This document shows, piece after piece, positions 6,393 to 29,875 of a DNA stretch of 64,000 nt. The notes below the pieces were generated by a model. It did no database searches, had not been told where the DNA came from, and saw only the letters and a program-made list of their open reading frames with translations. Position 1 is the first letter of the stretch, and each line of letters begins with the position of its first letter. The stretch spans positions 32,001-96,000 of the IMG/VR virus record IMGVR_UViG_3300010885_017276, one strand, 5' to 3'. Source of the stretch: a virus. Made by a program: the position numbers and the translations under genes.

Positions 6393-6809
6393 ATGGAACT
6401 TATATCAACGCATCCGATCAAGAAGTCTGATCTAGGTTTCCACGGTAATCTTTTTGGGGGTAAGCTATTAGCATGGATGGACGCAGCAGCCGCAGCATTT
6501 GCAATGCAGACTTGCGATACTCCCAGGATGGTTACAGTTATGATAGATAAGTGTTTGTTCAAAAAACCAGCAAAGGAAGGACAGCTAATCAAGATATACG
6601 GAGAAGTATCCCAGATAGGTAACACATCCATTACAATATATATGGAGGCTCGGTCTCACAATGTATATTCAGGACTACAGTCTACTATACTTTCGACAGA
6701 GATGAAGTTTGTAAGAATAGACGAGGGGGGAGACCCAATACCAATCTTAGAAAAGGTAAAAATAAAATACAGTCAGGTGGCGAAATTGGTAGACGCAGAT
6801 CGTAGGTAG
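6393..6809 (+). CDS. acyl-CoA thioesterase (hotdog fold, YciA-like)
   Basis: DLGFHGNLFGGKLLAWMD, FKKPAKEG, GNTSI and FVRIDEGG.P motifs. Confidence 0.85.
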   Translation: MELISTHPIKKSDLGFHGNLFGGKLLAWMDAAAAAFAMQTCDTPRMVTVMIDKCLFKKPAKEGQLIKIYGEVSQIGNTSITIYMEARSHNVYSGLQSTILSTEMKFVRIDEGGDPIPILEKVKIKYSQVAKLVDADRR

Positions 6810-6870
6810 CATCATTTACAATCAGCCTTAAACGTGGTAAATATTATAGGTTCGAATCCTATCCTGACAA
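6771..6870 (+). ncRNA. tRNA-like RNA with Leu/Ser-type D and T arms but aberrant anticodon region
   Basis: acceptor GTCAGG/CCTGAC, D arm GCG-AAATTGGTAGA-CGC, T arm ATAGG-TTCGAAT-CCTAT; the 48 nt between lack a canonical anticodon arm. Confidence 0.7.
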
Positions 6871-8988: not shown

Positions 8989-9057
8989 TAAGCAAGCCCC
9001 CTTCGGGGGGCTATTTTAAAACAAATTTTTTAACTAATCTAATCTTATTTTAAAAGT

Positions 9058-9939
9058 ATGGAAATTCTATCCAACATTCAGAGCGGAAACGCTAACATCG
9101 AGAGTATTAAAGGCCAATTGTTTGACGTTGTCAAAGTGCCACTAGTTACTAACCTTCAAGGGTTTGACAACCCTAACAGCTTCGGGACTTACCGAGCAAA
9201 CGGAGGCGAAGCCCTAGGAGTTGTAGGTAAAGACTTCACGCCTACTCAACCTAAGCTATTATTCGAGGACTTCGAAAATTGCTTGTACGATACGGACTGC
9301 GACCTAAAGGACGTTAAATATCTAGAGTTGAAAGGCGGTCGTAAAGTAGTGTTCGAAGCCCCAATCAAAACAATGGGCTTTACTAACCTACGAGGCCAAG
9401 AGGACGAAATGATAGTTAAGATTAACTTATCTACGGGTTTCGACGGACTTACCAAGACTAGTTTGTTTATTAGCTGTTACCGAATGGTTTGTGCCAATGG
9501 TATGAAAGCTTGGAAAACCGAGTTTGCTGTTTCTTTCAAGAATACAACCGGTAACGTCGGCAAGGCTTCATCACTTTGCCAAGACATCGCCAAGGCTACC
9601 GACCAAGCTAACGACTTCGAGGCTTACATCAAGAAGCTAAATTCGTCCGAGGTTGACCAAGCCAAAGTAGATGATTTTCTTTTCAAGACTATGGGCTTTA
9701 ATCAAAAGATGTATTCAGAACTAGGTACAAGAAAGCAAAACATCTTGTCCGCTGTACAAGAAAGCATCGCCCTAGAGTTTGGACGTACCGGCTCAACGCT
9801 TTGGGGATTAGTTAACGGCATCACGCACTACACTAATCACGTAGCTAGCACCAACGACCGAAACGATTACCTTCTTACCGGAGGCGGTCTTAAGCTAAAC
9901 GATTTAGCACAAAAGGTAGCCTACGAAATGGCCTACTAG
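9058..9939 (+). CDS. DUF932/DUF945 family phage protein
   Basis: LGVVGKDF, LKGGRKV, STGFDG, RMVCANGM and TLWGLVNGITHY motifs. Confidence 0.8.
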   Translation: MEILSNIQSGNANIESIKGQLFDVVKVPLVTNLQGFDNPNSFGTYRANGGEALGVVGKDFTPTQPKLLFEDFENCLYDTDCDLKDVKYLELKGGRKVVFEAPIKTMGFTNLRGQEDEMIVKINLSTGFDGLTKTSLFISCYRMVCANGMKAWKTEFAVSFKNTTGNVGKASSLCQDIAKATDQANDFEAYIKKLNSSEVDQAKVDDFLFKTMGFNQKMYSELGTRKQNILSAVQESIALEFGRTGSTLWGLVNGITHYTNHVASTNDRNDYLLTGGGLKLNDLAQKVAYEMAY

Positions 9940-9981
9940 TATTAACCAAGCCCCTCGAAAGAGGGGTTTATTTTAACTAAT

Positions 9982-10167
9982 ATGAAAAAGAAAAAGTTTA
10001 CCGAAAAGCAAAAGGCGGTTATTGCTAGATTCCTGCAAGAACGCCACTACGATCTAAAAGAGTATAAGGCCATTGGCACTAAGCACTACAACGACGACGA
10101 AGATGTTGAAAAAATCCTTGTTGCTATCTATATGCTAAATGAATACCTTTGGATGTGGGAACACTAA
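9982..10167 (+). CDS. hypothetical early protein
   Basis: bounded by repeats 2 and 3. Confidence 0.7.
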   Translation: MKKKKFTEKQKAVIARFLQERHYDLKEYKAIGTKHYNDDEDVEKILVAIYMLNEYLWMWEH

Positions 10168-10210
10168 TTACTAACCAAGCCCTCTACGGAGGGCTTTTAT
10201 CTTATCTTAT

Positions 10211-10375
10211 ATGAATTACTATATCTTATTGCCCGTTATTTGCCTGCTGCTTCTAGTAGCCCACATCGTCTATGTTAATCGCAGAGACAAGTTTGAGTAC
10301 TTGGACTATTGTATAGCAGTTTGCTTGCTCCTAGTCCCGTTTATTTGCTTAGTCGATTGCCTGCTATGTTGTTAG
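10211..10375 (+). CDS. small Cys-rich membrane protein (54 aa)
   Basis: translated by eye MNYYILLPVICLLLLVAH...LLCC; follows repeat 3. Confidence 0.6.
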   Translation: MNYYILLPVICLLLLVAHIVYVNRRDKFEYLDYCIAVCLLLVPFICLVDCLLCC

Positions 10376-10471
10376 TAGGCCTTATCGCAGTTTGCCTGCT
10401 GTTGATTGCAGGACTTAAAAAGTAATGTTTAACCAACCCCTTCTATCCGGAGGGGTTTTATTTTAACTAGT

Positions 10472-10645
10472 ATGATTTTTATTACCACTCTTTTGATTAT
10501 CTATTACGCATTAGTTATCAGGGAAACTTTTTGCGAAAAGTATTATGCAAGCCCTATCACAACAAAGAGGGACTTTTTTTTATGTTTGATACCTTTGTTT
10601 ATGTGGTTTAAAATGCTTATCTTTGCATTAAAGAACCTAGATTAA
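10472..10645 (+). CDS. small membrane protein (57 aa)
   Basis: translated by eye MIFITTLLIIYYALVIRE...; bounded by repeats 4 and 5. Confidence 0.65.
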   Translation: MIFITTLLIIYYALVIRETFCEKYYASPITTKRDFFLCLIPLFMWFKMLIFALKNLD

Positions 10646-10691
10646 TTATTAACCTAGCCTTTCATCACGGAGGGCTTTTATCTTAACTAGT

Positions 10692-10853
10692 ATGAAAGTA
10701 GAAATCTTTGTTTTGGACTATGGCTTCGAAGCCTTAATTATTGACGGGGGTAAAATCCTGGGGACTATCTTGGGTGTAACTATGGCGAACCTTTGCCAAA
10801 GTGTATACGATGTGTACGGAATCAACATCTTTGAATTAGTTAGTTTAAACTAG
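10692..10853 (+). CDS. hypothetical protein (53 aa)
   Basis: translated by eye MKVEIFVLDYGF...; ATG belongs to repeat 5. Confidence 0.6.
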   Translation: MKVEIFVLDYGFEALIIDGGKILGTILGVTMANLCQSVYDVYGINIFELVSLN

Positions 10854-10911
10854 TTAGTTCGTGGGGGTAAAACGGGGGGACAAAAAAGTTTTCCCTTTTT
10901 TTGTAAAAAAG

Positions 10912-10943
10912 TTTGGTAGATTAAAAACTTAGTTGTATATTTG
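10912..10943 (+). promoter_or_regulatory. early sigma-A promoter
   Basis: TTTG-GTAGATTAAAAACTTAGTTG-TATATTTG. Confidence 0.85.
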
Positions 10944-11008
10944 TAGTAGAATTAAAACCTAGAAGTTAGTGCTAGGAACCTCACTAACAAAACCTAATTT
11001 ATCTTATT

Positions 11009-11149
11009 ATGAGAAATTTAGCAGATTACATTGTTCATTGTTCACTAGAGGTTATTCAATGGGACGAACATAACCGCCCTTATGAGCAAACTCCAAATGG
11101 TAAAATTTATTTGTCTAAAAGGGCTTATAGTTATTCCGTAAAAAACTAA
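11009..11149 (+). CDS. hypothetical 46-aa protein, paralog of 19300-19479
   Basis: DEHNRPYEQTPNGKIYLSK...YSVKN. Confidence 0.7.
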   Translation: MRNLADYIVHCSLEVIQWDEHNRPYEQTPNGKIYLSKRAYSYSVKN

Positions 11150-11200
11150 TTACTAATCAAGCCCTTCTTAACCGAGGGGCTTTTATTTAAACTAACTAAT

Positions 11201-11416
11201 ATGAAAAATTTATTAACTATGTCGATAGAACTTGCAATTTTAAAATTAAAAGAAAAAGAAATCCCTTGTGTTGATTCAAGGGTTAAAGGGTATGATTATT
11301 TTATTCAAGATAATGGGGATGATTTGTCTTTAACTAATGAAGAAAATGAAATAGCACAAGCGTTTGGTGTTCATTTAACTGAACAAGAAGTTATTGATTT
11401 TTCAAAAACACTTTAA
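11201..11416 (+). CDS. hypothetical early protein
   Basis: AACTAACTAATATG leader. Confidence 0.65.
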   Translation: MKNLLTMSIELAILKLKEKEIPCVDSRVKGYDYFIQDNGDDLSLTNEENEIAQAFGVHLTEQEVIDFSKTL

Positions 11417-11426
11417 ACTAACTAGT

Positions 11427-11600
11427 ATGTGCTATCCTATCTTTTGTATTGCCGTTCACTTACTAGAGGGGCGTGAGGATGAACTTGACTTGGTTTGGGG
11501 GGACGCTGCAGAAGTTTATTCTAGGTTCCTAGACAGCGAATTTAACGACCCTAACAAGTCCGAACTTGACTGCATTAATAGCTTTATGGCTAACATTTAA
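11427..11600 (+). CDS. hypothetical early protein
   Basis: AACTAACTAGTATG leader. Confidence 0.65.
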   Translation: MCYPIFCIAVHLLEGREDELDLVWGDAAEVYSRFLDSEFNDPNKSELDCINSFMANI

Positions 11601-11662
11601 AACTAACTAATCTAAACTACAAGGGGGAACAAAAAAGTTTCCCCTTTTTTTGTGCCTAAAAG

Positions 11663-11694
11663 TTTGGTAGATTAAAAACTATTTTGTACCTTTG
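11663..11694 (+). promoter_or_regulatory. early sigma-A promoter
   Basis: TTTG-N20-TACCTTTG. Confidence 0.85.
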
Positions 11695-11724
11695 ATTATT
11701 ATTAATCTTAACTTATTTTATCCT

Positions 11725-11922
11725 ATGGAAATTGTAAAAAACTTGGCTGTCTTGAATCAGCTGTCTAAAGCCTATGGCTTGGAATTTTGTAGAACCTATA
11801 AGTATTGTACGGGGGGCGATAACATTCGTGTAAACCGCTACACTTATAAAGATGATAGCTTTGTGCTAAAGTATTTTGACGGGTGTTTTTATCCGTATAT
11901 TGTTAAACTTAAAACTAACTAA
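11725..11922 (+). CDS. hypothetical early protein
   Basis: ATG downstream of promoter; KYFDGCFYPY motif. Confidence 0.65.
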   Translation: MEIVKNLAVLNQLSKAYGLEFCRTYKYCTGGDNIRVNRYTYKDDSFVLKYFDGCFYPYIVKLKTN

Positions 11923-11977
11923 TCTAAACTAGGGGCTAATCGCCCCTTTTTTTTGTGCAAAACTTTAACACTTTTTA

Positions 11978-12009
11978 TTTGGGGGTTTAGTTTTATTGGC
12001 GTATCTTTG
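11978..12009 (+). promoter_or_regulatory. sigma-A promoter driving a non-coding transcript
   Basis: TTTG-N20-TATCTTTG with no sizeable ORF downstream. Confidence 0.75.
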
Positions 12010-12014
12010 TTCTT

Positions 12015-12190
12015 GTAGGGGGGTAATGGAATGTTATCCGATACAGGTGGGCTACTGAGATACTAGCGCAAGGAGGTTCTAAGGGAACCTGCCCCGTGGC
12101 GAAGGGGGGGAGGGAGGGGTGTGACGGAGTCTACCCTATGCGTGTGTAAAAAAACACGAACCCCTGAATTGCGTTACTCTGGCAATTTTC
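12015..12190. ncRNA. candidate GC-rich structured ncRNA between convergent promoters
   Basis: at least six hairpins and a G7-A-G3-A-G4 tract. Confidence 0.55.
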
Positions 12191-12195
12191 TATAA

Positions 12196-12227
12196 CAAAG
12201 ATACGACAAAATTTTGTACTAGTCAAG
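12196..12227 (-). promoter_or_regulatory. minus-strand sigma-A promoter, convergent with 11978
   Basis: reverse complement CTTG-N20-TATCTTTG. Confidence 0.7.
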
Positions 12228-12281
12228 AAAAAAGTAACAAAGTTATCAACATTATTTTGTTAATAAGTATGCAAAAAAAAG

Positions 12282-12313
12282 TTTGGTAGATTAAAATTAA
12301 CTACCTATATTTG
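12282..12313 (+). promoter_or_regulatory. early sigma-A promoter
   Basis: TTTG-N20-TATATTTG. Confidence 0.85.
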
Positions 12314-12358
12314 TATTGTAATTGCAACGAAGCGGTTACTTTAAATTATCTTATTACT

Positions 12359-12700
12359 ATGAACAAAGTAATTTTAAACATCGGGTTAAATGTTGGGAAT
12401 GTTGAACCAACAAAACAGCTAAACACAACGCTACACATATTAACTACTTTAAGCTTTTCATTGACTAGTGTAAAGGTACACGAAAATAGCGAGTACAACG
12501 AAAACGGGGAACGCTGTCTAGTAGTTTATTTTGATACTGAATTTGACTTGACTTTAATAAGTATCTTAATTGACGCAGTTTGCGAACACTTAGAACAGCA
12601 ATGTATAGCCGTTAAATTTAACGGGGTAGGTAAACTAGTTTATGATAGTAACTACAATGGAGAACGATTTGACTTTGTAGAGAAGTACTTTAAGGACTAA
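12359..12700 (+). CDS. probable S-adenosylmethionine lyase (T3 SAMase-like anti-restriction protein)
   Basis: ERCLVV and LEQQCIAV resemble the catalytic Glu/Gln motifs of T3 SAMase (EKTV, EQDCVLV); similar size; has its own early promoter. Confidence 0.55.
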   Translation: MNKVILNIGLNVGNVEPTKQLNTTLHILTTLSFSLTSVKVHENSEYNENGERCLVVYFDTEFDLTLISILIDAVCEHLEQQCIAVKFNGVGKLVYDSNYNGERFDFVEKYFKD

Positions 12701-12759
12701 CTAATCTAAAAAGCCCCTCGATAAATTTTGGGGGGCTATTAAAAAAAAGTAAAAAAAGT

Positions 12760-12790
12760 TTTGCAGTCTAAAAAATTATAATTATATTTG
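12760..12790 (+). promoter_or_regulatory. early sigma-A promoter
   Basis: TTTG-N19-TATATTTG after a hairpin. Confidence 0.8.
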
Positions 12791-12816
12791 TCAAACAATT
12801 TAAACACATTCACACT

Positions 12817-13392
12817 ATGAACAAACTAGTATTAAAACACGACAACCACGCAGACAGCCCTAGAACTTGGTGCAATTTAGGAACAATGATTTGTTTCCAT
12901 AAACGATACGACCTAGGGGACAGCCACGGGTATTCCTCTATTGACTATTCAAGTTGGGAGCAAATGGAAAAAGACTTAATTAAAAAAGAAAATCCGGCTG
13001 TTATCTTACCTTTGTACTTGTACGACCATTCAGTTGTTACCATTAGTACAACCCCATTCAGTAATCGTTGGGACAGCGGTCAAGTAGGGTTTATCTTAGT
13101 TAGTAAGGAAACAGCCCTAGCAGATTTTGGGGGTAAAAAAGTTACAGCTAAACTAAAAGAAAAGATAGAGAGACAGCTAGAGGGAGAAGTAGAAACTTAC
13201 GCACAATTCCTAGAGGGAGACGTGTACGGGTTTTCTATTGAGGACGAAGACGGGAATCATATTGACAGCTGTTTTGGATTTTACGGGAGTGACTTTGCTA
13301 CCAACGGGATATTAGACTACATTAACCATAACTTGTTGGGGGTAACAGAAGCCGAAGTACTACCTTTGCTAGAAGCAGCCGAGATTGAATAA
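12817..13392 (+). CDS. conserved phage/conjugative-element hypothetical protein
   Basis: SPR.W.NLG, PLYLYDHS, WDSGQVG, G.VYGF and DSCFGFYG motifs of a widespread mobile-element family. Confidence 0.75.
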   Translation: MNKLVLKHDNHADSPRTWCNLGTMICFHKRYDLGDSHGYSSIDYSSWEQMEKDLIKKENPAVILPLYLYDHSVVTISTTPFSNRWDSGQVGFILVSKETALADFGGKKVTAKLKEKIERQLEGEVETYAQFLEGDVYGFSIEDEDGNHIDSCFGFYGSDFATNGILDYINHNLLGVTEAEVLPLLEAAEIE

Positions 13393-13506
13393 ACTAATCC
13401 AAACCCCTCAATAAATTTTGGGGGGTACACAAAAAAAAGTAAAAAAACATTTGGTAGATACAAAGTAATTGCATATCTTTACCTAGAATTTAAAACCCAA
13501 TACAAT

Positions 13507-13659
13507 ATGATAAACGTATATTTCGAGAGTAGCACACACGCTGAATTAGTAGCAACATTCGACAGCGAAGAATTATTTATAGCTTGTCTACCTACACTAG
13601 AGGCAGAAGCTAAAAAACAGAATATGTTTGTAACAGAACAAGTAACAACAACCCTTTAA
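13507..13659 (+). CDS. hypothetical 50-aa protein
   Basis: translated by eye MINVYFESSTHAELVATF...; downstream of a promoter-like site at 13450-13481. Confidence 0.6.
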   Translation: MINVYFESSTHAELVATFDSEELFIACLPTLEAEAKKQNMFVTEQVTTTL

Positions 13660-13687
13660 TAATAATAATAATAATAAATTAACTAAT

Positions 13688-13972
13688 ATGAAAATCGTAA
13701 CACAAAATGCAGTAACTTGTTTCCTTAATAAGGGGAACGGAACATTCAACAACACACACGTTGTAACAGAAAACGAAGTATCTAAGCTGTATCTATTCGG
13801 CAATCTAATTGCTGTACTAGAACAAGGGGTACTAAAGGTAACCAATGCAGGTTGGTTTAGCAAGACTACTAAGGAACGCTTGAACGGACTACCTAATGTA
13901 AACGTAAGGCAGTCTAAGGGTAAGTGGTACTTGAACGATAATTTTTGGGACGGAAAACTAACTACTATTTAA
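13688..13972 (+). CDS. conserved phage hypothetical protein
   Basis: GNLIA...AGW.SKTTKERLN...Q..GKWY motif common in phage early regions. Confidence 0.7.
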   Translation: MKIVTQNAVTCFLNKGNGTFNNTHVVTENEVSKLYLFGNLIAVLEQGVLKVTNAGWFSKTTKERLNGLPNVNVRQSKGKWYLNDNFWDGKLTTI

Positions 13973-14046
13973 TTTTGTATCAGAAGATTTTTGAGGGGTG
14001 TATGTACCAAGCCCCCCAAAAAGATCGATTAACTAAAACAAAAAAG

Positions 14047-14286
14047 ATGAAACAGACAATTATAATAGGGAAGTTTGAATCCTTAAACATCAAGGCAGTA
14101 ATACATTCTATAGATGAAGTATACCAAGCCGATACACACGAAGAACTAGTAGCTTTGCTAGATACCTTTGACAAGGAAGGCAAGGATTGGTTGATACTTG
14201 AGAAGACCATATTTACCCTAGAGATAACACCCAATGCATTGTTGGGGCTTATTTGGGGGAGCAACAAGGGGGCAAATTGCGAATAA
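14047..14286 (+). CDS. hypothetical protein
   Basis: ATG at 14047 with A-rich leader. Confidence 0.5.
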   Translation: MKQTIIIGKFESLNIKAVIHSIDEVYQADTHEELVALLDTFDKEGKDWLILEKTIFTLEITPNALLGLIWGSNKGANCE

Positions 14287-14413
14287 TGCAAAGTTTTGGG
14301 GGGGGCAAATTGTCTAACCCCCGTAAATTTCGATACCACCCTTGCAGAATTATCAGTAATCTAGTACTTTCATTGCGAATACAATAATGGGGGTACACTA
14401 AAAAACAGCCAAA

Positions 14414-14605
14414 ATGGGATTAACTAAGACAAAAAAGGAACAAGAACTCTATGAAAGGTACAAAAAGTATCTAGGGTACGATACAATCATCCCCCAATCC
14501 ATAGTACAAAGCTACCTAACAGACCTACAAGAACTAGTGGGGGGGAGCAAGGCTAGATTAAATCGGGGGGTACAGCAAAAAGCCTACCTAGTCTACGTAG
14601 ACTAA
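14414..14605 (+). CDS. hypothetical protein
   Basis: ORF track. Confidence 0.45.
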   Translation: MGLTKTKKEQELYERYKKYLGYDTIIPQSIVQSYLTDLQELVGGSKARLNRGVQQKAYLVYVD

Positions 14606-14622
14606 TAAATAAACTAACTAAG

Positions 14623-14802
14623 ATGAAGCAAACAATACAAGAGAAGATAGAGGTAGCAGTACTTACCGGACAAAAGAGTATAGTAGTAAACGGAATACTA
14701 GTACAATGGAAGCCCCTACACTCCCAAGTAGCTAAAAGCAAGCTAGAGGGGTACGCTAAAGAGGTAGCAAGAAAGAGTTTGGAGGGGCTGTATAGTAAGT
14801 AA
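14623..14802 (+). CDS. hypothetical 59-aa protein
   Basis: translated by eye MKQTIQEKIEVAV...; AACTAACTAAGATG leader. Confidence 0.55.
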   Translation: MKQTIQEKIEVAVLTGQKSIVVNGILVQWKPLHSQVAKSKLEGYAKEVARKSLEGLYSK

Positions 14803-15094
14803 CTAGCTGATTGTGTGCTAGTTAGAGTGGGCGGACAACCCCCACCCACGATTTGAGGGTAGGTTTCGGCTGTCGTTTTTGGGTATGTCGGATTCAAATT
14901 ACATATACACAAATTTATACAACAAACTTGATTCCCCCCACTACCCCTAGACTAACTACTCTATACTATACTAGTACTACTCGAATGTTATCTGTATTAA
15001 CTTATCTAAGGTTGGTAGTTATGGTAGGTTATGTTTAGATTAGTTTAGCTACACTCGGCAGTCTTTTTATAGTCCGGCCAAAAGTTTACCCCTT

Positions 15095-26444: not shown

Positions 26445-26764
26445 GGGGGTGACTGGTTTTGACAGGTTACCAATAATTAATACAATCAGCCAGAGAGATA
26501 ACTGTAAACTAAGGTGAATTTTTTAAATGGCAAAAACATTTCTCGTGTAGTATCTCAAGGAGACAACGCACAAATCGAAGCTAACATGAACAAAGTATTC
26601 TCTCTATTGGGAGAAGAAGTTGCTGTAGCAGCCTAAATTCAAAGGATTTCTCTATTAGATTAAATAGAGTGGTGGAATCGTCAAGTGAGATTGACCCCAA
26701 TTAAGCTGTATAAATTGTATTAATGAACGTAATTTGGACGGGGGTTCGACTCCCCCCACCTCCA
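26445..26764 (+). ncRNA. ssrA: tmRNA
   Basis: GGGGGTG/CACCTCC-A acceptor with G3:U70; GACTGGTTTTGAC 5' motif; T arm GGGGG-TTCGACT-CCCCC; tag ORF 26529-26636 ending VAVAA*. Confidence 0.93.
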
Positions 26765-26870
26765 CAAATGTTTAACGCATGAACATACTTATTAAATTAT
26801 TAGTACTCGCTGTGCCTTTAGGGCTATCAGCAAAACCTTTAATCAGAGCATTTAAAAACAGAAACAAAAA

Positions 26871-28228: not shown

Positions 28229-29875
28229 ATGAAGAATTATTATTGGTTAAACCAAGACTCAAGAACTTTTTTGAGTAAAGATTATTTATTACCGGGAGTT
28301 ACCCCCGAAGAAAGAATACGAGAAATCGCAGACACAGCCGAAGAAATCCTAGGCATTGATGGGTTTGCAAATAAGTTCGAGGACTATATGTCTAGAGGGT
28401 TCTATTCATTAGCCACTCCAGTTTGGATGAACTTTGGGTTAGACCGTGGGTTACCTATCTCTTGCTATGGTATTGACATCCAAGATGATACTATGGACAT
28501 CTTGAGGTCAGCTGCTGAGATCGGGGCTTTGACCAAGATGGGTGGAGGGACTGCAGGATTCTTTGGTAAGCTAAGAGGTAGAGGTGCTAAGATTAAAAAT
28601 AACGGAGTTTCAAATGGAGCAGTTAGTTTTATGTCTTTGTTCCAATCTACCACAAACATAATCACACAAGGCCAAGCAAGACGAGGTTACTTTGCTGCTT
28701 ATCTACCGGTTGACCATCCGGATATCGAGGAGTTCTTACAATGCCGTGAAGAGGGCAACGCAATCCAAGATATTGCTATTGGTGTTTGTATCTCAGATGA
28801 GTGGATGGAGGCAGTAGAAGCCGGAGACAGCGATAAAAGAAAGGTATTAGCTAAGATACACCAAAAGAGAGCAGAGACAGGTTTCCCTTATATCTTCTTT
28901 ACCGGTAATGTTAACAAAAACAAACCGGAAGTCTATAAGAATAAACACATGGATATCAATCACTCTCAGATGTGTACTGAAATCTTAGAATACACAGATG
29001 ACAAAAAGAGTTTTGTTTGTTGTTTGTCCTCTTTGAACTTGTTACATTGGGATGAGATAAAAGATACAGATGCTATCGAAACTTTGGCTTACTTCTTAGA
29101 TGCAGTATACTCAGAGTTCATAAAGAAAGCAGACAATGTCCCCTTTATGGAAAAGGCCGTGCTTTTTGCAAAAGAACACAGAAGTATCGGTATTGGGGTT
29201 CTAGGTTGGCATAGCTTCTTACAATCTAAGATGATACCATTTGAGGGGCTAGAGTCTAAGATGCTGAACGCAGAGATATTTAGAACCATCAACGATAAGA
29301 GTTTGATTGCTAGTATGAGGTTGGCTACTATATATGGAGAGCCTAAGATGTTAGAAGGTTACGGTCAGAGGTTTACCACTAGACTAGCAATTGCCCCTAC
29401 TACTAGTTCATCATTTATCCTAGGACAAGTTAGTCCAAGTATCGAGCCACTACATTCAAACTACTTTATCAAAGATTTAGCTAAAGGTAAGTTTGTTTAT
29501 ATTAACCCTTACTTGAAACAGCTACTAGAAGATAAAGAACAAGACACTCCGGAAGTATGGAGAAACATTTTGTCTAAGGGAGGTTCAGTACAGCACTTGG
29601 ATTTCTTGGATGAAAGAGAAAAAGGAGTATTCAAAACCTTTGGTGAGATTAGCCAATTAGAAATTGTGCAACAAGCCGCACAAAGACAGAAGTTTATCGA
29701 CCAAGGTCAATCATTAAACCTGATGATACACCCTGATACCACACTAAAAGATGTCAATGCTTTATTCTTTGAGGCTTGGAATCTAGGTATTAAGACATTG
29801 TATTACCAAAGAAGTGTTAATATGGCTCAACAAGTAAGTCGAGATCTTATGAATTGTAGCTCATGTGAGGCTTAG
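28229..29875 (+). CDS. nrdA: ribonucleotide reductase class Ia alpha subunit (short, no ATP cone)
   Basis: PISC, SQMCTE, VCCLSS, APTTSSS, DQGQS, LYY and C-terminal CSSCE. Confidence 0.95.
   Translation: MKNYYWLNQDSRTFLSKDYLLPGVTPEERIREIADTAEEILGIDGFANKFEDYMSRGFYSLATPVWMNFGLDRGLPISCYGIDIQDDTMDILRSAAEIGALTKMGGGTAGFFGKLRGRGAKIKNNGVSNGAVSFMSLFQSTTNIITQGQARRGYFAAYLPVDHPDIEEFLQCREEGNAIQDIAIGVCISDEWMEAVEAGDSDKRKVLAKIHQKRAETGFPYIFFTGNVNKNKPEVYKNKHMDINHSQMCTEILEYTDDKKSFVCCLSSLNLLHWDEIKDTDAIETLAYFLDAVYSEFIKKADNVPFMEKAVLFAKEHRSIGIGVLGWHSFLQSKMIPFEGLESKMLNAEIFRTINDKSLIASMRLATIYGEPKMLEGYGQRFTTRLAIAPTTSSSFILGQVSPSIEPLHSNYFIKDLAKGKFVYINPYLKQLLEDKEQDTPEVWRNILSKGGSVQHLDFLDEREKGVFKTFGEISQLEIVQQAAQRQKFIDQGQSLNLMIHPDTTLKDVNALFFEAWNLGIKTLYYQRSVNMAQQVSRDLMNCSSCEA

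What the first reader, a model, noticed from the sequence alone, without database searches (positions are those of the whole stretch)
11978..12266. Convergent promoters across a structured G-tract RNA beside DnaA-like boxes: candidate antisense-controlled R-loop origin or sRNA pair
Seen: consensus promoters face each other (+ 11978-12009; - 12227-12196) across ~175 nt of GC-rich DNA with no sizeable ORF. The region forms hairpins (GCTA/TAGC, AGGTTC/GAACCT, GGGT/ACCC, CGTGT/ACACG, AATTGC/GCAATT) and contains G7-A-G3-A-G4 (12104-12119). An inverted pair TTATCAACA / TGTTAATAA (12243-12266) follows, resembling DnaA boxes. It is the only clear minus-strand promoter I found in the early region. Known: ColE1 uses a G-tract primer RNA controlled by a convergent antisense RNA, and mitochondrial CSB2 uses a G-tract to form priming R-loops. 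Inference: a transcription-primed origin for the PolA replisome, or a new sense/antisense regulatory RNA.
Basis: partly seen in the sequence, partly recalled or inferred. Interest (0 to 1): 0.75.

Follow-up and report, generated by a model that had tools for sequence, protein, structure and literature searches.

The report
Phage small RNA between facing promoters
The GC-rich gap in this crAss-like phage most likely encodes a folded small RNA, an unusual relative of a widespread uncatalogued phage RNA family, with a conserved promoter firing back across it, rather than a replication origin.

Summary
The sequence features are real. Two matches to the Bacteroidota-type promoter motif TTG-N20-TAnnTTTG face each other (11979-12009 +, 12226-12196 -) across a GC-rich, ORF-free island. 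This motif occurs 21 times in the window against 1.6 expected. Both promoters keep their position and spacing in all 13 related loci examined.

The island is a two-domain structured RNA on the + strand. The + strand folds better in 13 of 13 loci, and the helices hold G-U pairs. Its relatives carry a conserved core: a hairpin with a UUGAAAUAG loop, an AAGAG linker, and a hairpin with an ACUCCG loop. An invariant 23-mer of that core occurs in 19 viral and 87 metagenome stretches, in none of the GTDB genomes, and matches no Rfam family.

The window is a divergent member. The hallmark hairpin is replaced, and its sequence survives only as a reverse complement in the second domain. Covariance-model scores for the window are weak, so homology rests on synteny.

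The G-tract supplies the 5' strands of two helices. A G-quadruplex motif is present in only 1 of 8 long forms. GC skew shows no turn here, and the "DnaA boxes" are one palindrome between divergent promoters.

Verdict: a sense/antisense small-RNA cassette, inferred because no RNA data were found. The R-loop origin is not supported.

The parts
11931..11947 (+). Intrinsic terminator of the upstream 76-aa ORF (hairpin plus T8). The same hairpin reads as a weaker terminator on the minus strand and is a possible end of the antisense RNA.
   Evidence: One search lists it on both strands. It is conserved in position in relatives.
11979..12009 (+). P(+): Bacteroidota-type promoter, TTG-N20-TATCTTTG. 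The start site is predicted near 12015-12017; the distance rule is recalled, not measured.
   Evidence: An equivalent motif lies about 115 nt upstream of the core in 13 of 14 relatives; the 14th locus is cut off at that end.
12016..12191 (+). Predicted structured small RNA of about 175 nt with two domains. The ends are inferred.
   Evidence: GC island. The + strand folds better than the - strand in 13 of 13 loci. Homology to L005/L088 is 83% over 177 nt.
12034..12103 (+). Domain 1, a divergent copy of the family core. It has closing helix P1 (CGAUACAGG/CCCGUGGCG), hairpin P2 at 12051-12067 (GCUA/UAGC, loop CUGAGAUAC), an AAG linker, and a replacement hairpin at 12074-12090 (AGGUUC/GAACCU) where relatives carry the ACUCCG-loop hairpin H.
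   Evidence: Best R1 hit in the window, but weak: 14 bits, E about 0.18. R2 gives 8.8 bits. It is syntenic with canonical cores. A close relative reads 12059 G>A, which restores the consensus loop UGAAAUA.
12103..12165 (+). Domain 2. P4 closes it (AGGGG 12103-12107 with CCCCU 12161-12165). P5 is at 12116-12137 (GGGGUG/UACCCU, inner GAC-GGA-GUC). P6 is at 12141-12158 (CGUGU/ACACG). The G-tract at 12104-12119 supplies the 5' strands of P4 and P5.
   Evidence: Folds; alignment A3. P6 has two compensatory changes (CGUAC/GUACG in L128 and L139). In P5 a G-U pair becomes G-C in L104. The reverse complement of P5 equals the family hairpin H (R2 minus-strand hit at 12119-12134).
12167..12191 (+). P7: a terminator-like hairpin (AAUUGC/GCAAUU) followed by UUCU. 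It is weak in this window.
   Evidence: At the same place L096 and L104 carry a different GC-rich hairpin (GGGGA/UCCCC) followed by a U-run. The terminator scan does not list it.
12196..12226 (-). P(-): Bacteroidota-type promoter, TTGACT-N17-TATCTTTG, facing leftward. The start site is predicted near 12189, so its transcript would be antisense to the whole small RNA.
   Evidence: The motif is on the minus strand in 13 of 13 loci and on the plus strand in 0 of 13 in the same interval. Sequences are listed.
12242..12267 (.). Palindrome GTTATCAACA-N6-TGTTAATAAG, with its centre about 28-30 nt from the -33 elements of both P(-) and the next P(+). It is a candidate operator for a dimeric DNA-binding protein, or a DnaA-box-like pair.
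   Evidence: It is a single copy in the genome, is kept in all relatives, and recurs in unrelated phage intergenic regions.
12283..12313 (+). Next promoter (TTGGTAGATTAAAA...TATATTTG), divergent from P(-). It drives a 5'-UTR hairpin (12318-12339) and the 113-aa gene at 12359-12700.
   Evidence: This promoter sequence recurs in many metagenome contigs (depth peak).

Best explanation
The interval is a small-RNA cassette.

Host RNA polymerase starts at P(+) (11979-12009). It makes a non-coding, two-domain structured RNA of about 175 nt that ends at a weak terminator-like hairpin (12167-12191).

Domain 1 is a divergent copy of a two-hairpin core that many phages place right at the start of a transcript. 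The core consists of a hairpin P2 with a UUGAAAUAG-type loop, an AAGAG linker, and a hairpin H presenting ACUCCG. Domain 2 is a three-helix module found only in the crAss-like lineage. Its hairpin P5 has the same stem as H but the complementary loop (CGGAGU). In relatives that carry both hairpins, the two loops can pair with each other. In this phage H itself has been replaced, and only the GGAG-presenting P5 remains.

A second conserved host-type promoter, P(-) (12226-12196), starts at the 3' end of this RNA and reads back across it. It gives a fully complementary antisense RNA. Through pairing, RNase attack or polymerase collision, that RNA would limit the small RNA. P(-) shares a single palindromic operator with the divergent promoter of the next gene, so one DNA-binding protein probably switches both.

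Shown: the promoter motifs and their conservation, the RNA helices with covariation, the strand preference, and the family relationship by synteny.
Inferred: that either promoter fires, the RNA ends, antisense control, and the operator function.
Unknown: the molecular target of the RNA.
For: Promoters:
- The motif is enriched 21 against 1.56 expected.
- P(+) is kept in 13 of 14 relatives and P(-) in 14 of 14. Including the window, P(-) is found in 13 of 13 loci on the minus strand and 0 of 13 on the plus strand.
- In P(-) only the two free positions of the box (TC, CC, AC) and the spacer sequence vary. TTG, the 20-nt spacing and TA..TTT are fixed.

RNA strand:
- The + strand minimum free energy is lower in 13 of 13 loci.
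- G-U pairs occur in P2 (column pair 24-40 is G-U in 26 of 79 sequences) and in P5.

Family core:
- The 23-mer occurs in 19 viral loci and 87 metagenome stretches.
- P2 covaries: column pair 20-43 is C-G in 51 and U-A in 22 of 79 sequences.
- For P2 plus H, 94.7% of cells are paired, and 0 of 500 shuffles reached the observed score.
- A search that placed no constraint on H returned H-like hairpins in 40 of 42 unique sequences.
- In L170 and L125 the core stands alone between a TAnnTTTG promoter and an intrinsic terminator, so it is a self-contained + strand RNA gene.
- No Rfam family matches.

The window is orthologous to loci that carry the core:
- 83% identity over 177 nt with L005, and 82% mean column identity over the whole cassette.
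- Close relatives that also lack H span the stretch in two other lake-water runs.

Domain 2 helices: P6 shows compensatory changes and P7 is swapped for a different hairpin.
Against: - No RNA data exist: no RNA run holds the stretch. Transcription, RNA ends and the antisense RNA are therefore all inferred.
- The window's domain 1 scores weakly against both covariance models (14 bits, E about 0.18; 8.8 bits, E about 0.35). With R2, unrelated coding sites in the window score higher.
- The genome search with R1 found nothing in the window's own genome.
- The hallmark hairpin H is missing on the + strand. This copy may have a different function or may be decaying.
- The + terminator is weak and was not called by the scan. 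Short-form relatives have no obvious + terminator before P(-).
- Single-sequence fold z-scores are unimpressive.
- H was invariant in alignment A2 by construction. Its stem is supported mostly by one-sided wobble changes, with 2 double changes.
- Helix P1 is only 62.9% paired and is absent where the transcript seems to start at the GG before CCUG.
Confidence: 0.55

Rival explanations
1. Only the + strand small RNA matters. P(-) is a real promoter whose job is insulation: polymerase collision, or occlusion that stops read-through between the small-RNA unit and the next gene. Its transcript is a by-product with no pairing role.
For: P(-) is conserved even in short forms, where it abuts the core directly. 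The early region is packed with terminators, 21 against 4.3 expected, which suggests strong pressure to separate transcription units. The + terminator is weak here and absent in short forms.
Against: Nothing separates this reading from antisense pairing without RNA data. Any transcript from P(-) is fully complementary to the small RNA, so pairing would follow automatically if both are made together.
Confidence: 0.2
2. The functional RNA of this particular phage is the minus-strand transcript. It carries the family's hallmark hairpin sequence (GUAGAC-UCC-GUCACAC), while the plus-strand copy has lost it.
For: The minus strand at 12119-12134 matches the H part of model R2 (8.7 bits). It is identical over 16 nt to the H variant seen on the sense strand of L233 and L251. 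A conserved promoter drives that strand.
Against: The reverse complement of any hairpin keeps the same stem, so this likeness is expected from P5 alone. The minus strand lacks P2 and the AAGAG linker. R1 gives no minus-strand hit at E up to 10. G-U pairs in P5 become A-C mismatches on the minus strand. The minus strand folds worse in 13 of 13 loci. In other long forms the minus-strand version is degraded (GUAUACUCCAAC and similar).
Confidence: 0.1
3. Transcription from P(+) through the G-tract forms a persistent RNA-DNA hybrid that primes the phage PolA replisome. The antisense RNA controls it, and host DnaA binds the adjacent boxes.
For: The convergent promoters are real and conserved. The window's tract fits a canonical G-quadruplex motif. 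TTATCAACA-type boxes stand in oligonucleotides taken from the replication origin of Thermoanaerobacter tengcongensis (PMC2887958; only the passage found was seen). In L097 the same palindrome lies near a perfect TTATCCACA, and L091, L095 and L105 carry arrays of it. In L121 and L126 the core RNA is followed by six CATATTAAACA iterons.
Against: The G-quadruplex motif is present in only 1 of 8 long forms, and short forms lack domain 2. The G-runs have matching C-runs within the RNA. There is no GC-skew turn at 44 kb; the extremes are at about 30 kb and 76 kb and follow gene orientation. There is one palindrome, not a cluster. No replication genes recur beside the core in 87 loci examined. In L170 and L125 the core RNA is a terminated stand-alone gene.
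Confidence: 0.06
4. This is a cis-acting leader. The structured RNA is the 5' part of a longer transcript and modifies the polymerase or the downstream message, as a put-like antiterminator or a riboswitch for the gene at 12359-12700.
For: The core sits right after promoters in all lineages. The region is terminator-rich. Short forms lack a terminator before the next gene.
Against: The next gene has its own promoter and its own conserved 5'-UTR hairpin, whichever gene follows. In L170 and L125 the core is followed by a terminator and a converging gene. An opposing promoter lies between the RNA and the gene.
Confidence: 0.05

Closest known systems
Cis-antisense RNA pairs and convergent-promoter switches of phages and plasmids: ColE1 RNA I/RNA II, R1 CopA/CopT, coliphage 186 pR/pL, and pCF10 prgQ/prgX (recalled, not looked up here)
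   Same: Two promoters face each other over about 190 bp, so the transcripts overlap. The hairpin loops could kiss. A regulator site lies next to one of the promoters.
   Different: Here the sense partner is itself a conserved non-coding structured RNA, not a primer or an mRNA leader. The antisense promoter sits beyond the 3' end and covers the whole RNA, not just the 5' end. There is no evidence of a link to replication. Both promoters are Bacteroidota -33/-7 type.
Uncatalogued phage RNA core found here (CCUG-P2-CGG-AAGAG-H). It may be among the 8,495 unnamed candidates of PMC10690425, whose supplements I could not see.
   Same: The position behind a promoter is the same. The P2 hairpin has the same loop type, the AAG linker is present, the flanks are syntenic, and domain 2, P(-) and the palindrome are identical in kind to L088, L114 and L186.
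   Different: Hairpin H with the ACUCCG loop is replaced by an unrelated hairpin. Covariance-model scores are not significant.
Abundant early non-coding RNAs of the Cellulophaga crAss-like phage phi14:2 (g004-g005 and g005-g006 junctions; bioRxiv 10.1101/2020.03.07.982082, passages seen)
   Same: The phage is also crAss-like. The RNAs are intergenic, transcribed rightward, and of unknown function. In phi14:2 the host RNA polymerase serves promoters with -35- and -10-like blocks.
   Different: No sequence match was found between this element and any cultured phage record. The phi14:2 RNAs are described as long.
HK022 put RNAs (recalled)
   Same: They are two adjacent hairpins encoded immediately downstream of early promoters in a terminator-rich region.
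   Different: put acts in cis on the transcribing polymerase. Here stand-alone, terminated copies exist (L170, L125), and an opposing promoter follows.

Membership tests
Phage core RNA (CCUG-P2-CGG-AAGAG-H), defined here | Hairpin P2 closed by C-G pairs, with a YUGARAUAR loop | tested here: met
   The window has GCUA/UAGC with loop CUGAGAUAC at 12051-12067. The R1 alignment places it on P2. A close relative reads the consensus UGAAAUA (12059 G>A).
Phage core RNA (CCUG-P2-CGG-AAGAG-H), defined here | Hairpin H: GUAG/CUAC stem presenting ACUCCG, just 3' of the AAGAG linker on the same strand | tested here: not met
   AGGUUC-UAAGG-GAACCU stands at that place (12074-12090). No H sequence exists elsewhere in the genome except as the reverse complement at 12123-12134.
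Phage core RNA (CCUG-P2-CGG-AAGAG-H), defined here | Significant covariance-model score | tested here: inconclusive
   R1 gives the best hit of the window, but only 14 bits, E about 0.18. R2 gives 8.8 bits, E about 0.35, below two unrelated sites. Nothing was found through the genome search.
Phage core RNA (CCUG-P2-CGG-AAGAG-H), defined here | Orthologous position: promoter, core, P(-), palindrome, next promoter | tested here: met
   The order and spacing are the same as in L088, L114, L096, L104, L128, L139 and L186.
ColE1-type RNA-primed origin with antisense control | A G-rich primer RNA segment that forms a persistent hybrid, conserved among relatives | tested here: not met
   The G-tract varies from G6 to G7-A-G3-A-G4. 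A canonical G-quadruplex motif is present in 1 of 8 long forms, and short forms lack the tract's context. The G-runs pair with C-runs in the RNA.
ColE1-type RNA-primed origin with antisense control | An antisense RNA promoter opposing the primer promoter | tested here: met
   Met at motif level only. The geometry differs: the antisense start lies at the 3' end, not within the 5' part.
ColE1-type RNA-primed origin with antisense control | Replication starts here | not testable with these tools
   GC skew shows no turn at the site, but skew in this genome follows gene orientation, so it is weak evidence.
DnaA-dependent origin (oriC-like) | A cluster of several DnaA boxes (TTATCCACA-like) next to an AT-rich unwinding element | tested here: not met
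   There is one inverted pair only. Against the recalled consensus the two boxes match 8 of 9 and 7 of 9. The palindrome occurs once in 124 kb.
Any Rfam 15 family | Score at or above the family's gathering threshold | tested here: not met
   Whole window: only tmRNA and tRNAs. 11850-12400 at E up to 10: only chance-level hits. Twelve canonical loci at gathering threshold: tRNAs only. L170 core at E up to 10: chance-level hits.

The most novel reading that the evidence does not exclude
Phages of several host phyla share an uncatalogued small RNA that starts at the transcript's first bases. Its near-invariant ACUCCG loop, which resembles an anti-Shine-Dalgarno sequence, engages a universal partner. 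The crAss-like lineage added a cis-encoded hairpin with the complementary CGGAGU loop and an antisense promoter as a built-in switch. This phage has discarded the ACUCCG hairpin but kept a perfect 12-nt complement to it. Its RNA would then work as a sponge or decoy against the ACUCCG-loop RNAs of co-infecting rival phages, or as a mimic of their GGAG-bearing target.
Probability: 0.07. Interest if true: 0.85.

Novelty: new variant of a known kind. Interest (0 to 1): 0.55.

Why it matters
Small RNAs of crAss-like and other environmental phages are almost unexplored. This work ties one odd intergenic island to an RNA core found in more than a hundred phage contigs from lakes and oceans. The core is absent from 185,579 bacterial and archaeal genomes at the exact-sequence level and absent from Rfam. 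About 16-23 of its bases barely change across phages that use different promoter types. Conservation of that kind points to a partner common to many hosts. The crAss-like cassette has facing promoters, complementary loops and a shared operator, and it is compact enough to test as a model of timed RNA control in a Bacteroidota phage. The result also removes a tempting but unsupported origin assignment.

Tried and rejected
- Cultured phage records: blastn of the window element gave nothing. The L104 element gave only a 40-nt promoter-like match.
- Protein-anchored searches: the 113-aa neighbour gave no relatives. The 191-aa neighbour gave 80 loci, of which only L002-L005 share the element.
- Exact G-tract pattern in viral contigs: 0 hits.
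- The 23-mer in GTDB genomes: 0 hits. The second scan that was allowed was not used.
- No RNA holder was listed for the stretch. Laying DNA contigs of four runs gave a few substitutions but no test of expression.
- tRNA linkage: 1 of 50 core loci has tRNA genes nearby.
- Neighbour proteins of the core (87 loci, 649 ORFs): the recurrent ones are of unknown function or are structural or terminase genes on the other strand. No replication genes recur.
- The window's neighbours have no informative family. The 113-aa protein has only a sub-threshold WYL_2 hit and a PHROG of unknown function, so the 'SAM lyase' note is not borne out by these libraries.
- A minus-strand paralogue of the core was considered and mostly rejected (see rivals).
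- rRNA mimicry: a 10-nt match of the minus strand to a recalled 16S sequence is not kept in relatives (by eye). Dropped.
- A literature word search for the palindrome halves gave primer tables only, plus one origin oligonucleotide table.
- Searches for a published description found none. PMC10690425 may list the motif in supplements that I could not open.
- Helix P1 of my first three-way-junction model is weak and not universal.
- Rows dropped: before building A4 I dropped L220 and L264 as chance matches in what looks like coding sequence. I also dropped loci whose flanks ran off the contig. Only 28 of the 79 A2 rows were reused, chosen by hand.
Full report
**What is in the sequence**

The window is bases 32001-96000 of a 124,055-bp viral record. 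Its promoters are Bacteroidota-style.

The finding's interval is a GC island: GC is 0.49-0.60 against about 0.22-0.40 in the flanks. It follows the terminator of a 76-aa ORF. No ORF of 32 aa or more lies in it.

The two "consensus promoters" are matches to TTG-N20-TAnnTTTG. That motif occurs 21 times in the window against 1.56 expected by chance. Nineteen matches are on the + strand ahead of genes. One of the two minus-strand matches stands ahead of a giant minus-strand gene. The other is the one in this finding. Genome-wide it is the only minus-strand match inside the + gene block. That this motif is the -33/-7 promoter of Bacteroidota is recalled knowledge. The phi14:2 paper states that middle and late genes use host polymerase with -35- and -10-like blocks (bioRxiv 10.1101/2020.03.07.982082, passages seen).

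**Relatives of the cassette**

No cultured phage matched. A neighbouring protein led to four contigs, and L005 shares the element at 83% over 177 nt.

Searching viral contigs for the palindrome gave 37 stretches, printed. Nine of them are homologous cassettes. Fourteen relatives were tabulated. They come in two forms.
- Long forms (L114, L088, L198, L096, L104, L128, L139, L186) resemble the window.
- Short forms (L120, L102, L107, L168, L089, L116) lack the 3' half.

All keep the same order: terminator, P(+), GC-rich element, P(-), palindrome, next promoter, and a 5'-UTR hairpin.

**The facing promoter is under selection**

In every relative the minus strand between the element and the palindrome holds TTG, exactly 20 bases, then TA..TTT(G/A) (14 of 14). 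Including the window and dropping two near-duplicates, the count is 13 of 13 on the minus strand and 0 of 13 on the plus strand of the same interval. The spacer sequences differ widely. Within the box only the two unconstrained positions change (TC, CC, AC). That is the pattern expected of a working promoter, not of drift or of a helix strand.

**The RNA lies on the + strand**

Relatives carry a 23-base string that is identical in 19 viral loci and 87 metagenome stretches. It is absent from one genome of each of 185,579 prokaryote species.

I aligned 79 distinct copies with flanks (A2). The hairpin before the string (P2) covaries strongly. Its closing pair is C-G in 51 sequences and U-A in 22, and the switch occurs in at least six separate sub-lineages (by eye). 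Inner pairs show many double changes and 26 G-U pairs. G-U pairs would be A-C mismatches on the other strand.

In L170 and L125 the unit sits between a TAnnTTTG promoter and an intrinsic terminator and faces a converging gene. It is therefore a self-contained RNA gene there. In another phage group it begins directly after a TGATAATAT-type promoter.

The 23-mer was fixed by my own search pattern. I therefore used the last viral scan on P2 alone. Of 42 distinct hits, 40 carry the following hairpin H, 35 of them with exact AGUAGACUCC. Their 3' strands vary in ways that mostly keep a four-pair stem (A4: 96.5% paired, two double changes, nine one-sided wobble changes). The loop ACUCCG is nearly constant.

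A closing helix P1 that I first drew is only 62.9% paired. It is missing where transcripts seem to start at the GG before CCUG. The universal core is therefore two hairpins joined by AAGA.

Rfam has nothing like it. A catalogue of 8,495 unnamed viral RNA candidates built from IMG/VR exists (PMC10690425, passages seen).

**How the window fits**

Aligned to its relatives, the window keeps the leader position, a P1-like helix, P2 with a loop of the family type, and the AAG linker. A lake-water relative even reads the consensus loop. Where H should stand, however, the window has a different, longer hairpin at 12074-12090.

Model R1 puts its best window hit exactly here, but at only 14 bits (E about 0.18). 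Model R2 gives 8.8 bits, below two unrelated sites. Membership by score is therefore inconclusive. Orthology rests on synteny and on flanking identity.

Contigs from two other lake-water runs span the stretch and read no other letters within the replacement hairpin at 12074-12090. The H-less variant is therefore real and maintained.

**The second domain and the G-tract**

In long forms the 3' half folds as a closing helix P4, a hairpin P5 and a hairpin P6. A terminator-like hairpin P7 follows.
- P6 changes from CGUGU/ACACG to CGUAC/GUACG in L128 and L139, which is two compensatory changes.
- P7 is AAUUGC/GCAAUU in most forms. In L096 and L104 it is GGGGA/UCCCC plus a U-run.
- P5 has a G-U pair that becomes G-C in L104.

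The G-tract is simply the two 5' strands of P4 and P5, sometimes with a short spacer between them. Its partners are the two downstream C-runs. A canonical four-run G-quadruplex motif exists only in the window, 1 of 8 long forms.

P5 has the same stem as H with the complementary loop (CGGAGU against ACUCCG). The reverse complement of any hairpin keeps its stem. This explains why model R2 hits the minus strand at 12119-12134, and why another reader saw a 9-bp pairing in a relative. In RNAs that hold both hairpins, the two loops could pair. In the window only the GGAG-presenting partner is left. Its 12 bases are perfectly complementary to the canonical H, which occurs nowhere else in this genome.

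**The palindrome**

GTTATCAACA-N6-TGTTAATAAG lies with its centre about 28-30 bases from the -33 elements of both P(-) and the next rightward promoter. That is the layout of an operator shared by divergent promoters. It occurs once in the genome.

The same palindrome stands in intergenic DNA of nine unrelated phage contigs, often just upstream of a TAnnTTTG promoter, and in arrays in L091, L095, L097 and L105. That spread suggests a host factor or a widely shared regulator.

As DnaA boxes the halves match the recalled consensus at 8 of 9 and 7 of 9. A paper's oligonucleotide table shows TTATCAACA in a clostridial origin (PMC2887958, passage seen). DnaA is therefore not excluded as the binder. 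One inverted pair, however, is not an origin-type cluster.

**Origin model**

Cumulative GC skew has its minimum near 30 kb of the genome, where promoters diverge. Its maximum is near 76 kb, where the gene strands converge. It rises smoothly through 44 kb. No replication genes recur beside the core in other phages. Together with the non-conserved G-tract, this leaves the R-loop origin without positive evidence, though it cannot be excluded without experiments.

**Mechanism I commit to**

- A host-polymerase-made structured small RNA on the + strand: confidence about 0.8 that such an RNA gene is what the island encodes.
- It is opposed by a conserved antisense promoter whose transcript covers it: about 0.55-0.6 that P(-) fires and matters.
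- Both P(-) and the next gene's promoter are governed by one palindrome-binding protein: inferred.

The RNA's own target is unknown. The near-invariant ACUCCG loop across phages with different promoter types points to a partner shared by many hosts. A GGAG-containing RNA site is my guess from the complementary loop in domain 2.

No RNA-seq holder exists, so every statement about transcripts is inference from sequence comparison.

Noticed in passing
window 12318-12339: The hairpin GUAAUUGC-AACGAA-GCGGUUAC sits at the predicted 5' end of the downstream mRNA. It is kept, with compensating variants, in all cassette relatives, even where the gene behind it differs (113-aa family, 191-aa family, others).
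   Followed up: partly
L091, L095, L097, L105: The palindrome GTTATCAACA-N4-6-TGTTAATAAC occurs in arrays of 2-3 copies in intergenic DNA of unrelated phage contigs. In L097 it lies about 90 nt from a perfect TTATCCACA. These may be origins or operator arrays.
   Followed up: no
L121 and L126, about 60-200 nt downstream of the core RNA: Six direct repeats of CATATTAAACA (iteron-like) follow the core RNA in one phage sub-lineage.
   Followed up: no
L119, L123, L124, L127, L129, L135 and others: In the phage group with TGATAATAT-type promoters, the core RNA is flanked by repeated GTGTATAGCA/TGCTATACAC decamers in both orientations. These look like protein-binding sites.
   Followed up: no
L229:396-462 (-): One family member carries GUGGAC-GGA-GCAGUAC in place of hairpin H on the sense strand. 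It has the complementary GGA loop within an otherwise canonical core.
   Followed up: no
window 9000-15000: Terminator-like hairpins number 21 against 4.3 expected. Nearly every small gene has its own.
   Followed up: no
genome about 29.0-30.0 kb (just left of the window): The cumulative GC-skew minimum coincides with a cluster of divergent promoter motifs: minus strand at 29085 and 29443, plus strand at 29470, 29522 and 29914. By skew alone this is a better place than the finding to look for an origin or for the start of early transcription.
   Followed up: no
window 26445-26767 and 6771-6870: A full-length tmRNA gene (93.7 bits) and a 100-nt weak tRNA-model hit (33.8 bits) lie next to tRNA-Met.
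   Followed up: no
leaders of L088, L096, L102, L104; window 12026-12058: The leader before the core holds a tiny ORF starting AUGGA (3-10 codons) at a similar place in most cassettes, for example AUG GAU AGA UAG. It may be chance.
   Followed up: no
window 12275-12315: The promoter TTGGTAGATTAAAA...TATATTTG recurs in very many metagenome contigs. Summed contig depth there is up to about 400, against about 10 in the flanks. It is a shared promoter cassette of this phage group.
   Followed up: no
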